The position numbers and the translations under genes are program-made. A stretch of DNA of 63,798 nucleotides, the filler included, from Dirinaria sp. TL-2023a (taxonomy: Eukaryota), in NCBI GenBank assembly GCA_051941275.1. It is 32 parts of 32 records of this genome, joined end to end, with 100 filler letters (N's around TTAATTAATTAA, not from the genome) between each part and the next. Parts side by side here need not be neighbours in the genome. Positions count along the whole stretch, not along the records: positions 14,181 to 16,094 come from JAVEBF010002472.1; 31 more parts are not named here. One strand, given 5' to 3'. Below are positions 14,185 through 18,700 of the stretch, one piece after another. Position 1 is the first letter of the stretch; every line of letters begins with the position of its first letter. The notes under the pieces are model-generated. The model was given only the letters and a program-made list of their open reading frames with translations, did no database searches and was not told where the DNA came from.

Positions 14185-14723
14185 TGTTAGAACCGGTGCA
14201 GAGCTCAGGTCAATGCAGGTATGATTAACTAAGGATATTATCACTAAGGAAGGAAAGAAGAAGAAGAGAAGCTAGATACAATGAGAGTCTCAGATATATA
14301 CGCGTGCGGGTGTCGCGTATCTCGATCGAGTTAGCGCATTATCCCTGAGAATCCTGAAAGATGTTGCCTCAGGTAGTATATCAGGTGCATGCTCGTAACA
14401 CTACCTCCCCCTTCAACAAGCCATTTCCTCATGACTTCATACAAGCCTTATTCATTGCGCATTGTAAGACGTTTGTGAAGGTCCAATTATCCTAGCAATC
14501 CAGTCCATAGTAAGGTGTTGTTGTAGATCCAATTCCTAGCGTTTGTATCATGTATGACGACTTCATTCTTCGCTAACTTTGTATTCTAATATTCTGACCA
14601 ATAGGTGTTGACTCTGCATCGATGTTGTGTGTCTTTTGTAGCAGATCTGCTGTGCGTGTTGACATTGTAGAAAAGTGCCTGTTGTAGCCGACTCGCTGTG
14701 TGTGTTTATTGTCTGCCGCGCAG
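14185..14723 (-). mobile_element. 3' end of an LTR element: 216-bp LTR (14185-14400), PPT (14401-14414) and non-coding internal sequence; left arm of an inverted repeat
   Basis: Reverse complement of 15244-15781; LTR reads TGTTAC...CTAACA and is preceded by GAAGGGGGAGGTAG on the minus strand. Confidence 0.85.
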
Positions 14724-15213
14724 TGTTACGACCCTGGAACACCTAAGTAGTAAGATAGGCACCAAGTCCCTTGACTTGGTTTAGTTAGTCTTTTGGCGCT
14801 GCCGGGACTTTTACCATTGAGAAACCTATCTAATCAAGATTGTGTCTTTGACATTAAACCAAGTCAACACGATCGCAAGATTCTGAGTTCGATTCTCAGC
14901 TCGAACGCTTGAAGGGTTTTCGAGTTTCGGCGAGAACTTGTGACTGAGAGCTTATCTAAGCTCGGGGCGATTACTGTTCTCTGTCAACAACACTTTAGAC
15001 TCTCTCTGAAATCTCGCGCGTCATGACTCGCTCTGATTAGTCTTGCTCATCGCGGAACGCGATTTCTCTAGAGAGAGAGGTAGTGTTACGACTCTGAAAC
15101 ACCTAAGTAGTAAGATAGGCACCAAGTCCCTTGACTTGTTTTAGTTAGTCTTTTGGCGCTGCCGGGACTTTTACCATTGGGAAACCTATCTAACCAAGGT
15201 TGGGTCTTTGACA
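14724..15213 (+). mobile_element. TRIM (terminal-repeat retrotransposon in miniature): 130-bp LTRs 14724-14853 and 15084-15213, 230-bp non-coding interior
   Basis: Direct repeats TGTTACGA...TTTGACA with 7 differences; PPT AGAGAGAGAGGTAG before the right LTR; post-LTR TAAACCAAGTCAA (14855-14867) is complementary to LTR 14771-14783. Confidence 0.85.
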
Positions 15214-15243
15214 TGCTCAATCGTCATAATCTTCTTCAAAGCC

Positions 15244-15781
15244 CTACGCGGCAGACAACAAACACACACAGCGAGTCGGCTACAACAGGCATTTTTCTAC
15301 AATGTCAACACTCACAGCAGGTCTGTTACAAAAGACACACAACATCGATGCAGAGTCAACATCTATTGATCAGAATATTAGGATACAAAGTTAGCGAAGA
15401 ATGAAGTCGTCATACATGATACAAACGCTAGGAATTGAATCTACAACAACATCTTACTATGAACTGAATTGCTAGAATAATTGGATCTTCACAAACGTCT
15501 TACAATGCGCAATGAATAAGGCTTGTATGAAGTCATGAGGACATGACTTGTTGAAGAAGAAGGTAGTGTTACGAGCATGCACCTGATATACTATCTGAGG
15601 CAACACCTCTCACAGTTCTCAGGGGTAATGCGCTAACTCGATCGAAATACGCGACACCCGCACGCGTATATATCTGAGACCCCATTGTATCTAGCTTCTC
15701 TTCTTCTTCTTTCCTTCCTTAGTGATAATATCCTTAGTTAACTATACCTGCATTGACCAGAGCTCTGCACCGGTTCTAACA
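15244..15781 (+). mobile_element. Second copy of the same LTR-element 3' end (LTR 15567-15781); right arm of the inverted repeat
   Basis: PPT GAAGAAGAAGGTAG then TGTTACGAGC...GGTTCTAACA; aligns to the reverse complement of 14185-14723. Confidence 0.85.
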
Positions 15782-18700
15782 GGAACGTCTACGCTACGCC
15801 GTCGAGAAACAGAGCACACTATCGAACACGCAGATGAGGGTCAGAAAACATCGATCGATGAACACAGCACTACAGCTCATAACGAAAAAAGTGCATACGA
15901 TATGAAGCGGAAACAAGAAACGTGTGATATCATTAATGAATCTGAACGTTTTCGAAGCATTCGATAACGTATCGCACGTCAGATTGCTTCACAATATGCG
16001 CAAACGAAAAATACCGACACGTTTGTTGACATGAGTGAAAAACTTTCTGAAAAAACGTCGAATCACACTGATTATTGACGACTACACGCAAGCGNNNNNN
16101 NNNNNNNNNNNNNNNNNNNNNNNNNNNNNNNNNNNNNNTTAATTAATTAANNNNNNNNNNNNNNNNNNNNNNNNNNNNNNNNNNNNNNNNNNNNCTTCTG
16201 GGGGCTTCAGGTTGCTGGTAAAAACTTTACCAAGATGTATTATTGCCGGAACCCAGGATCCCAAATACAGTAAACAAACCTCCTATCAACAAAAGGCCAG
16301 AACCGCGGGAGGGGTTCAGAACGTGCTTTCCAACCACTTAACCTGTCCATCGGGAGTGCGATATCATCATCATGCGTCGCGAATATCCGCCAATGGTACA
16401 TCCACCCAACGTATGCAGGGCCCGCTTCCGAAAAAGAAAAGGAGGACCTGCAACTTGACTGCAAGGCCTTGATCACTCGGTAACCAGCCGGAGGGCAGAG
16501 TGATCCCCCCCCCCACGGAACTCCTGTACGATAATCGAGATATATGTGGTGGAAAGTACCTATAGAGCTCCTGCACGAACAACGGGGAAAAAAGCCAACC
16601 GTCGTTGCAGGATCCGGAAACCCGACTGGTGTCGAATGCGATTCTTCGCTTCACCCCGTACCACTGTTACCTTCCCTCCGCACGTTTTAGCCACATACTG
16701 CGTACTGCCCGTACTGCTTACTCCTTCCAATGGATACGCGCAAGTGTATCACCATTTCTTCCTCTCCCCCACATCATCGAAATCAAATCTGCGTCTTTCT
16801 TAACTGGGAAGAAAAAGAACAAAGAAAAAGAAAAGAAAAGAAAAGAAAAGCAAAGCGCTCCCCACTGGCCAGTCCTAATGCAGTCCCTCCCGATGGATCT
16901 TATTTATCGCGAGTGATGAGAACGAGATAGTGGCGAAAAGCGCAAGCGCAAGCACAAGCACTGCTGGTGCTGGCCAGAGGAAATACCGAATGATCAATAG
17001 TAATGCGTATGGTACAGTAAATTTGAATTCCTCCGGTCGTCGTCCAGGGTACTCGTACTGGTTTTACTAGCGCCCGCGCTTTTTTCCACCCCAACCTTAA
17101 CCGCTGCGATGCTGCTCTGCAATGGAACATGCCTTCCTTTCCTACTACCGTCCTAACCGCTAAGGTCATGTACCTAAGTACATTACCTGAAAAGAACAGG
17201 GGTAGGTCAAGTGGATACTTAGGAAGAGAGCCAGAGAGCGAGATAGAGAGACTTAGGTAGTGCTAGACTGCTAGCAGCAGCAAAAGCAAATGAGAACTGA
17301 GCCGAGGCTTTTATGCTTTCTTCTTTTTCCCCCCTTTTCTCTTATTCTTCGAATTTAAACCCGCCAAAGTCTTTTTCGCAGAAGGATTCATATCTACCGT
17401 CCGTACATACATGTAAGATCTTACATTACGAAATTGCCATCCCCCATCTTCCCTACCTGCTTTGCCTCGGCTTCTTGCTTCTGAGAGGTACGAGTACACT
17501 ATGTATGTACATAGTAGGTGATGATACCATCCCTACCTTATTTGTCTTCCTCCTCTTGGCATCATCGATCAATGATTTCTCGTCCTTCATCTTCATCTTT
17601 TTATCTCCAAGGATGGGGAACAGCTAGCTACTTCTACACATACTTGTATACAAGACTTCGGTGATACTGTTTCTTTTCTTTTCTTTTTTTTTTTTGGAGG
17701 ACATTCAAGTGTCATCGCAACAGCATGGTATATCCCTCTGCGTGGTATATAGAGTCCCCCATACACCACCACCAAAAAAAAAAGGAGTAAAGAAACCTCC
17801 CCATCCGCACAATAAATCCCCAAAACACACGCGCACACACACTCTTTTTCTATTCCATTCCCTCCGAGTATGAGTGCTTTGATCTAGCCCTTCATCTATC
17901 CTCTTAATCCAGGTCTTCATTTCGCTCTTCTCATCTCTTTACTCTGTAACATATATATAATTCTTAACGTCCGTCTGTTTTTCTAATTCTCCTTCTTTCT
18001 TCCTTCCTTCCTTCCTTCCTTCCTTTCTTTTTTTTTTCCCCCCCCCAGAATGCATGTAAAGAATGGTATTAATTTTAGCTTTTAAAATGCAGGTAATTGC
18101 TTAAAAGNNNNNNNNNNNNNNNNNNNNNNNNNNNNNNNNNNNNNNNNNNNNTTAATTAATTAANNNNNNNNNNNNNNNNNNNNNNNNNNNNNNNNNNNNN
18201 NNNNNNNAAAAAAAAAAAAAAAAAAAAAAAACAGGTTCAACGAGTTGGCATCATGAAATGGCTTTACATTCGCCATTTGCCAGAATCACCGAAAGCTCAA
18301 TTCTTGATCTAAGCCAAAGCGATAATACGGATTTGGAGTGAATCGTTGGCCATTCTGGGTCTATCAACAGATATTGCCGGCAGACTCGAAGAAGAGGAGA
18401 AGAAAGTATCCACAGATATCCTTGCCACTACCAACCCAACTTGTCCATTGAATATCATAGAACCTGGTGCAGGCCTCAAATCTTCAGTTAGCCTCACAAG
18501 CTTTGGAGAAAGTGAAAGAATCTCAAATTGAAGCATCCTTATCGGATCGAGAAGATAACGATATTCTAATCAAGTACAGATAAACAGATACCAATGGAGC
18601 ATAGCAGGTCGAATCAAGGTTCCGTAGGGATATACACGCGCTGAGCACAGGTGGTCCTTCGGAAGAAAACTCAAAATTCTGTAAATCCCACAATATCCTT

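What the first reader, a model, noticed from the sequence alone, without database searches (positions are those of the whole stretch)
14724..15213. 490-bp fungal TRIM with a Tf1-type self-priming site instead of a tRNA PBS
Seen: 130-bp TG..CA LTRs, a PPT, and a 230-bp non-coding interior with hairpins (e.g. GAGCTTA-TC-TAAGCTC at 14948-14963). The 13-mer just after the left LTR (TAAACCAAGTCAA) is the exact complement of LTR positions 14771-14783, which also form an alternative hairpin with 14761-14768. Established: Tf1/sushi-group chromoviruses prime reverse transcription by annealing the transcript 5' end to the PBS. TRIMs are mostly described in plants and animals with tRNA primers. Inference: a minimal self-priming parasite whose LTRs may be short enough to limit RIP.
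Basis: partly seen in the sequence, partly recalled or inferred. Interest (0 to 1): 0.7.

Follow-up and report, generated by a model that had tools for sequence, protein, structure and literature searches.

The report
Self-priming miniature fungal LTR retrotransposon
This is a real, multi-copy, gene-less 490-base jumping element of a fungus that most likely primes its own reverse transcription, borrows its enzymes from a full-length retrotransposon family of the same genome and may carry a tRNA-type promoter, but it does not escape the fungus's mutational defence.

Summary
Observation confirmed: 130-bp LTRs, purine tract and a 13-nt LTR/PBS complement (0 of 20,000 shuffles). It is a family, not a one-off deletion: 44 or more matches, 18 two-LTR copies of 458-511 bp, 5-bp TSDs on some copies and solo LTRs (none on this copy). 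The conserved pairing is 11 nt, not 13. Three other LTR families of this genome each have their own 11-nt primer/PBS pair, so Tf1-type self-priming is likely. New here: a TSD-flanked chimera (5' LTR of Ty3/Gypsy family D on the TRIM body) and five D-to-TRIM end fusions point to D as helper. A tRNA-type A box overlaps the primer and a B box lies 109 bp downstream (0 and 1 of 1,000 shuffles; absent from the other families); Pol III use is unproven, about 40%. The RIP-escape idea fails: 136 of 144 LTR differences are transitions, mostly at CpC. The scan reported this family before on other contigs of this genome, and similar elements in two other genomes. No RNA evidence. New variant of a known kind.

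The parts
14724..14853 (+). 5' LTR (130 bp, TG..CA); only about 49 bp lie upstream of the primer, with no TATA or CT-rich box seen
   Evidence: comparison with LTRs of families B, C, D
14761..14780 (+). 8-bp hairpin whose 5' arm copies the PBS core; the loop varies in length and sequence between lineages while the arms are kept
14773..14783 (+). predicted self-primer, 11-nt conserved core (3' end 14782 or 14783)
   Evidence: predicted duplex
14777..14788 (+). tRNA-type A-box-like motif overlapping the primer
   Evidence: 9.4 bits against host tRNA matrix, weak alone (53 of 1,000 shuffles); divergent lineages end in GG as tRNA A boxes do
14855..14865 (+). primer-binding site, complementary to the LTR; no TGG start
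14854..14975 (+). 122-bp interior block shared by all subfamilies (PBS, B box, closing stem, 3' hairpin)
14886..14896 (+). B-box / T-loop-like motif (T-arm-like stem 14883-14899 in this subfamily)
   Evidence: 14.4 bits, same position in 18 of 18 copies; 4 such sites in 330 kb of background
14948..14963 (+). conserved hairpin with variable loop
14976..15069 (+). subfamily-specific 3' interior (interiors of 198, 202, 204, 209, 230 and 255 bp occur)
15070..15083 (+). polypurine tract plus TAG abutting the 3' LTR
15084..15213 (+). 3' LTR; its primer copy carries a G>T change
14185..14723 (-). context: 3' half of a second non-coding LTR element (family B), reversed
15214..15781 (+). context: 3' half of family B (interior, PPT, LTR 15567-15781)

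Best explanation
A non-autonomous LTR retrotransposon (TRIM, here family A) that is self-primed like Tf1 and copied in trans. Shown from DNA: two LTRs, PBS complementary to the LTR, PPT, many dispersed copies, 5-bp TSDs, solo LTRs, fusions with family D ends. Inferred: (1) a short RNA starts at or a little upstream of 14773 and runs into the 3' LTR; (2) it is packaged by a self-priming Ty3/Gypsy of family D (full-length member with open gag and pol frames on G000:C1265); (3) the 11-nt LTR segment anneals to the PBS, the helper's RT/RNase H cuts at its 3' side and extends it; (4) plus strand starts at the PPT; (5) the helper's integrase inserts the cDNA with a 5-bp TSD; (6) inserted copies are then hit by RIP-like C>T mutation at CpC. 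The promoter is the weakest step: either a tRNA-type Pol III promoter split across the LTR edge (about 40%) or Pol II / read-through with the B box a leftover.
For: Family and integration: 44 matches with 40 of 100 candidates scored; 37 of 38 hits of an interior pattern are this family; perfect 5-bp TSD on 4 of 18 two-LTR copies and 5 of 7 full-length solo LTRs. Priming: 193 of 198 primer/PBS cells pair in 18 copies (186 Watson-Crick, 7 G-U); sliding the pairing drops it from 98% to 10-55%; longest complement to any of 27 retrieved tRNA genes is 8 nt, in the D arm; families B, C and D each have a different 11-nt LTR/PBS pair 1-2 nt behind the CA, and D shows a compensatory transversion in 3 clear and 1 degraded of 13 5' ends. 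Helper: C2447 is a D 5' LTR joined through an ACA overlap to the A PBS, interior and 3' LTR, inside a perfect TSD; 5 of 44 A left ends without a PPT are joined to a D-like end by TT+AG or TT+AA, the extensions expected on unprocessed cDNA, against 0 of 41 right ends; one such composite (C2269) lies inside a perfect TSD. C1265 has CCHC gag, RT, RNase H, integrase and Tf2-type SH3.
Against: No RNA, start site or cDNA end was observed. No compensatory change from selection inside family A (346 of 500 shuffles); one lineage carries an uncompensated primer transversion in both LTRs (L021), and D has one uncompensated case (L186). 9 of 18 two-LTR copies, this one included, lack a TSD; 3 could not be scored and 2 match 4 of 5. 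No alignable sequence is shared between A and D; A's LTR start and PPT resemble families B and C more than D. The third duplex of the Tf1 'pretzel' is not evident. The tRNA set is incomplete (63 of 962 candidates scored). The fusions rest on a fragmented assembly with no reads to check them.
Confidence: 0.8

Rival explanations
1. Refinement: the element is transcribed by RNA polymerase III from a type 2 promoter that exists only at the 5' end (A box in the LTR, inside the primer; B box in the interior), so one 12-nt stretch serves as promoter and primer, and the 3' LTR and solo LTRs are promoter-less.
For: A+B score 23.7 here, reached by 0 of 1,000 shuffles (1 of 1,000 for L004); 5' ends of families B, D, E score 8.7, 12.4 and none. 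4 equal B boxes and no pair in 330,212 bases of background, both strands. B box at the same place in 18 of 18 copies, with subfamily variation at the degenerate position; kept where the T-stem partner is deleted (198-bp subfamily) and in a divergent lineage (C641) whose U5 does not align. Divergent LTRs carry closer A boxes ending in GG and a constant 19-20 nt from an upstream purine in 7 of 7 LTRs. U3 is about 49 bp with no TATA or CT tract, unlike B, C, D. T4-T5 runs are weak terminators in yeast (PMC4937561, passages).
Against: The motif was spotted by eye before scoring. The A box alone is weak (53 of 1,000) and its conservation is largely explained by priming. A-B distance is 109 bp against 42-102 in 26 host tRNA genes. 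5 of 18 copies have a T5 run in the interior, and 23 of 26 host tRNA genes have T5 or longer within 30 nt. No strong terminator in the 3' LTR. The GTTCG core can also be read as an RNA stem. A tRNA-like start near 14757 would put the primer at +17, not at the 5' end as in Tf1.
Confidence: 0.4
2. The B box is a non-functional tRNA or SINE relic, or an RNA T-loop/packaging motif, and the RNA is made by Pol II from the short U3 or by read-through from neighbouring elements.
For: The T-arm-like 17-mer matches the host tRNA-Gln and tRNA-Gly T arms at 16 of 17 positions; copies sit mostly inside nests of other LTR elements; Rfam and ARAGORN see no RNA gene.
Against: The motif survives deletions on both sides and lineage divergence; no Pol II core elements were seen in U3; read-through could not supply a defined 5' end near the primer.
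Confidence: 0.45
3. Priming by a host tRNA or tRNA fragment, as in fungal Helenus, with the LTR complement a by-product.
For: The primer contains 8 nt identical to the D arm of host tRNA-Ala(AGC); Helenus uses anticodon-loop priming (PMC10886601); Tyr, Ile, Asp, Asn, Thr, Trp, Phe and Val tRNAs were not retrieved.
Against: No TGG start; the LTR match is 11-13 nt against 8; the fusion partner is a self-priming Ty3/Gypsy, not a Copia.
Confidence: 0.06
4. The helper is family C (chromodomain-type Ty3/Gypsy remnants sharing A's LTR start and PPT), or several families serve.
For: Same TGTTACGA start and GGTAG end of PPT; C is also self-priming; left-end extension AG fits a C-type PPT.
Against: No C-A end fusion or chimera among fetched loci, against 6 with D; no intact C member was seen.
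Confidence: 0.15
5. One-off internal deletion or assembly artefact.
For: This copy has no TSD and sits at the centre of a 540-bp inverted repeat.
Against: Dozens of copies in at least six interior classes, TSDs on others, arms only 94% alike.
Confidence: 0.02

Closest known systems
Tf1/Tf2, Tj1, Tosmo1-3, Tcry1 and the Tf1/sushi chromoviruses (MAGGY, Cft-1, skippy, Boty, Afut1 as listed in PMC6934838)
   Same: PBS just behind the 5' LTR that is complementary to an LTR segment; PPT; TG..CA; 5-bp TSD; 11-nt core (the Tf1 length of 11 is recalled).
   Different: No coding capacity, 490 bp; U3 of about 49 bp; extra U3/R hairpin; A/B-box pair; third duplex of the pretzel not evident.
TRIMs of plants, ant (PbTRIM), bivalves (biv-TRIM)
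   Same: Under 1 kb, 100-250-bp LTRs, non-coding interior with PBS and PPT, TSDs, solo LTRs, tandem copies.
   Different: Those have tRNA PBSs (Met, Leu) or none identified (biv-TRIM); this one pairs with its own LTR.
Helenus / TRIMp3 (Kojima 2024, PMC10886601), with Cassandra and Ajax
   Same: Fungal TRIMs with A- and B-box motifs and 5-bp TSD; Pol III use proposed.
   Different: Helenus has both boxes inside each LTR, is reported from Pucciniales and Agaricomycetes, is tRNA-primed, Copia-dependent, and the paper found no LTR/PBS complementarity. Here only the A-like box is in the LTR, the B box is interior, the primer is the LTR and the partner is Ty3/Gypsy.

Membership tests
TRIM | under 1 kb, two LTRs of 100-250 bp, non-coding interior | tested here: met
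   458-511 bp, LTRs 127-133 bp in 18 copies
TRIM | PPT before the 3' LTR | tested here: met
TRIM | multi-copy with TSDs | tested here: met
   4 of 18 full copies and 5 of 7 solo LTRs with perfect 5-bp TSD; none on the window copy
TRIM | PBS complementary to a tRNA (usual wording of the definition) | tested here: not met
   no TGG; best 8 nt in 27 tRNA genes, set incomplete. Hence a variant, not a plain member
Tf1/sushi self-priming group | PBS complementary to an LTR segment | tested here: met
Tf1/sushi self-priming group | primer at the RNA 5' end and cleaved by RNase H | not testable with these tools
   needs RNA and cDNA ends
Tf1/sushi self-priming group | three-duplex pretzel structure | tested here: inconclusive
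   central duplex and a short R-U5 pairing predicted; no consistent third duplex
Tf1/sushi self-priming group | RT/IN phylogeny and chromodomain | tested here: not met
   the element has no ORF, so it works like, but is not, a member; the candidate helper has a Tf2-type SH3 and only a weak chromodomain hit (E 0.03); no tree was built
Helenus (TRIMp3) | tRNA-derived sequence with A and B boxes inside the LTR | tested here: not met
   B box lies 33 nt into the interior; no tRNA by ARAGORN or Rfam
Helenus (TRIMp3) | tRNA 3' end or anticodon-loop primer, Copia partner in fungi | tested here: not met
   tRNA set incomplete
TRIMp3 (any Pol III-driven TRIM) | working Pol III promoter | tested here: inconclusive
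   motif pair significant; function untested

The most novel reading that the evidence does not exclude
A Pol III-transcribed, self-priming TRIM lineage: the A box is the reverse-transcription primer, the B box lies in the interior so that only the 5' LTR is a promoter, a U3/R hairpin hides the 3' primer copy, and the RNA rides in particles of a Ty3/Gypsy family with which it shares no sequence. It would be a tRNA-independent, SINE-like LTR parasite and, if the scan's notes on other fungi hold, a recurrent design.
Probability: 0.35. Interest if true: 0.7.

Novelty: new variant of a known kind. Interest (0 to 1): 0.45.

Why it matters
It extends Tf1-type self-priming to a miniature non-coding element and gives a short natural map of the cis signals that such an element needs (primer, PBS, a 122-nt block, PPT). 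How TRIMs depend on their helpers is an open question in the Helenus paper; here the chimera and the end fusions name a helper from genome sequence alone, one with no alignable homology. If Pol III drives it, this is a promoter layout not described for Cassandra, Ajax or Helenus. It also shows that 130-bp LTR elements are not spared by RIP-like mutation, here with an unusual CpC bias.

Tried and rejected
Metagenome scan with an interior pattern: 0 hits. A primer+PBS pattern gave 5 metagenome and 1 viral hit; none aligned to the element beyond the pattern or had LTRs, so they were taken as chance. Sequencing runs: none was listed, no RNA holder listed, so no reads were laid. Rfam: 5 chance matches, E 1.7-8.3, in 8 loci; ARAGORN 0 genes in 14 loci. 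Within-family covariation: uninformative; the one two-sided change in the alignment is two CpC-type transitions at one pair. The idea that the U3/R hairpin masks the 3' primer copy held at all three tested 3' ends in 2 of 5 copies (L004, L006) and not in the other 3, so it stays a weak hypothesis. No full-length element with A's LTR was found in the fetched loci. C2975, first read as a D-D junction, has no LTR upstream and was dropped. C204 was dropped from the interior count as a chance hit. L140 was left out of the tRNA matrices (encoded CCA, probably bacterial). L006 and L015 were left out of the mutation count (cut end; LTRs of two subfamilies). No insertion age was computed, because hypermutation breaks the LTR clock. 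The host's class was not determined. No protein-database or structure search was run.

Full report
Observation. The window is a string of 32 small contigs of a 27.7-Mb assembly; the element lies on G000:C2472. The host looks like a filamentous ascomycete (intron-bearing tRNA genes, gene content, RIP-like mutation); its class was not determined. The two LTRs (14724-14853, 15084-15213) differ at 7 of 130 sites. The 13-mer at 14855-14867 is the exact complement of 14771-14783; none of 20,000 LTR shuffles reached 13 nt and 14 reached 11. The hairpins and purine tract are as described. This copy has no TSD.

A family. A search of the genome gave 44 matches with only 40 of 100 candidates scored; an interior pattern gave 38 hits, 37 of them this family. 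Eighteen two-LTR copies are 458-511 bp. They share the LTR and the first 122 interior bases and differ in the 3' interior. Perfect 5-bp TSDs flank 4 of the 18; 2 match 4 of 5, 3 cannot be scored (contig end, tandem), and 9 have none. 5 of 7 full-length solo LTRs have perfect TSDs. Divergent lineages with unalignable U5 exist (C641, C599, C2540, C2269, C465, C2243).

Priming. The duplex is predicted with probability near 1 whether the RNA starts at 14757, 14771 or 14773 (L004). Inside the family there is no informative covariation, and one lineage has an uncompensated transversion in both LTRs (L021). The better evidence comes from the genome's other LTR families: B (1.67 kb, non-coding), C and D each have their own 11-nt LTR/PBS pair 1-2 nt behind the terminal CA, and D has a compensatory transversion in 3 clear and 1 degraded of 13 5' ends, probably one event, with one uncompensated case. 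Family E (C1331) shows 9 nt. The longest complement to 27 retrieved tRNA genes is 8 nt, in the D arm; the set is incomplete. Self-priming is established for Tf1/sushi elements (bioRxiv 10.1101/2022.12.06.519325, section 28 read whole; PMC4600332, PMC5341516, PMC6317226, passages). The 11-nt length for Tf1 and the original Levin papers are recalled, seen only as citations.

Helper. Two RT loci with long open frames exist among 32 matches: C1265 (family D) and C1331 (family E), both Ty3/Gypsy by domain order. A shares no alignable sequence with either, yet C2447 is a D 5' LTR joined through a short overlap to the A PBS, interior, PPT and 3' LTR, inside a perfect TSD. This is what an intermolecular plus-strand transfer between co-packaged D and A templates would give (inference). 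In addition, 5 of 44 A left ends that lack a PPT are joined to a D-like LTR end by TT+AG or TT+AA, against 0 of 41 right ends. TT is the spacer between D's CA and its PBS, and AG or AA are the last bases before A's 3' LTR, so these look like unprocessed cDNA ends; in C2756 the D LTR is a 3' LTR, where TT exists only in cDNA; in C2269 the composite lies inside one TSD. Two of the five (C875, C2756) may share an origin. None could be checked against reads.

Promoter. Families B, C and D have a CT-rich tract (B also a TATA-like run) just before their primers; A has about 49 bp and neither (read by eye). Matrices from 26 host tRNA genes place an A box at 14777 and a B box at 14886. The pair score was reached by 0 of 1,000 shuffles here and 1 of 1,000 for L004, the B box alone by 5 and 0, the A box alone by 53 and 29; the 5' ends of B, D and E have no such pair. 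In 330,212 bases of masked background there were 4 equal B boxes and no pair. The B box is at the same place in 18 of 18 copies, survives loss of its stem partner in the 198-bp subfamily, and survives in the divergent C641 lineage. Divergent LTRs carry A boxes closer to the tRNA consensus and keep 19-20 nt to an upstream purine; that tRNA genes start 18-20 nt before the A box is recalled. Against: the motif was noticed before it was scored; A-B spacing (109) is just beyond the host range (42-102), though yeast SNR6 has widely spaced boxes (PMC9136082, passages); 5 of 18 copies have an interior T5; there is no strong terminator; the A box is conserved anyway as primer. Earlier notes on this genome judged Pol III unsupported or a relic. 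I had the idea before reading them, lowered it from 0.5 to 0.4, and took the relic reading from them as a rival.

RIP. Between the two LTRs of 16 copies, 136 of 144 differences are transitions; 108 of the 136 are at CpC (0.23 per site against 0.03 for CpT and CpA and 0 for CpG). The inverted B arms show the same (28 of 32). Short LTRs did not protect the family. The usual RIP context is CpA (PMC12543289, passages); one search on CpC listed 12 papers, of which I read none. Whether RIP itself is the cause is inferred.

U3/R hairpin. Its arms are kept across lineages while the loop takes at least four forms. Blocking the 5' arm in the 3' LTR moved the PBS from the 5' primer to the 3' copy in 2 of 5 copies tested and not in 3: a plausible mask, weakly supported.

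Comparison with print. Fungal TRIMs are published: Helenus (PMC10886601, parts 1-4 of 6 read; supplements not read, and its tables could hold further families) has both boxes inside the LTR, tRNA primers and Copia partners, and the text has no mention of self-priming, Tf1 or ascomycetes. biv-TRIM lacks a canonical PBS and mentions self-priming only for autonomous elements (PMC6934838, passages); PbTRIM is tRNA-Leu primed (PMC3532108, passages). Five searches aimed at a self-priming TRIM or non-autonomous chromovirus and two on fungal or Pol III TRIMs listed none that describes one; the library lacks most subscription journals, and Repbase was not searched.

Verdict. A real self-priming TRIM family, very probably mobilised by family D, already noted several times by this scan in this genome. 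The additions are the 11-nt core, the helper evidence, the quantified A/B-box pair and the refutation of RIP escape. New variant of a known kind; interest 0.45.

Noticed in passing
window 14185-14723 and 15214-15781: The TRIM joins two 3' halves of family B in inverted orientation, starting 30 bp apart in B's interior; arms 94% alike, outer flanks different, no TSD. Ectopic recombination, two-target integration or misassembly; unexplained.
   Followed up: partly
L031 (G000:C2379) 406-2075: Family B is a second non-coding LTR element, 1.67 kb with internal tandem repeats, 216-bp LTRs and its own 11-nt self-primer; its LTR ends resemble family C.
   Followed up: partly
L247 (G000:C2447): Chimera of a D 5' LTR and the A body inside a perfect 5-bp TSD.
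   Followed up: yes
G000:C875, C2260, C2500, C2756, C2269: D-like LTR ends fused to A left ends by 4-nt linkers that match unprocessed cDNA ends; never to A right ends among fetched loci.
   Followed up: yes
L193 (C2243), L176 (C9), L068 (C2980): A LTRs are interrupted by LTRs of families B, C and D at LTR positions about 92-113; a possible insertion hotspot in U5.
   Followed up: no
all repeat families examined: C>T mutation with a strong CpC bias and no CpG changes, unlike the usual CpA context of RIP.
   Followed up: partly
L002 (C265), L030 (C2354): Tandem LTR-interior-LTR-interior arrays of family A.
   Followed up: no
L099 (C1331), L100 (C1265): Two Ty3/Gypsy elements with open gag and pol frames despite the hypermutation; C1331 has a clear chromodomain and a long non-coding-looking 3' region, C1265 a weak chromodomain hit and a 1.3-kb direct repeat at its ends.
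   Followed up: partly
L152 (G000:C2:36663-36770), L154 (G000:C1162:4937-5034): Two related tRNA-like genes with near-identical arms but different, atypical anticodon regions; possibly SINE-like or pseudogenes.
   Followed up: no
L140 (G000:C3015:237-318): tRNA-Leu gene with encoded CCA on a 1-kb contig; probably bacterial contamination of the assembly.
   Followed up: no
window 15885-16094 (and RT match C2472:1570-1872): A degraded RT-like stretch follows the right B LTR, so the composite sits in another retroelement.
   Followed up: no
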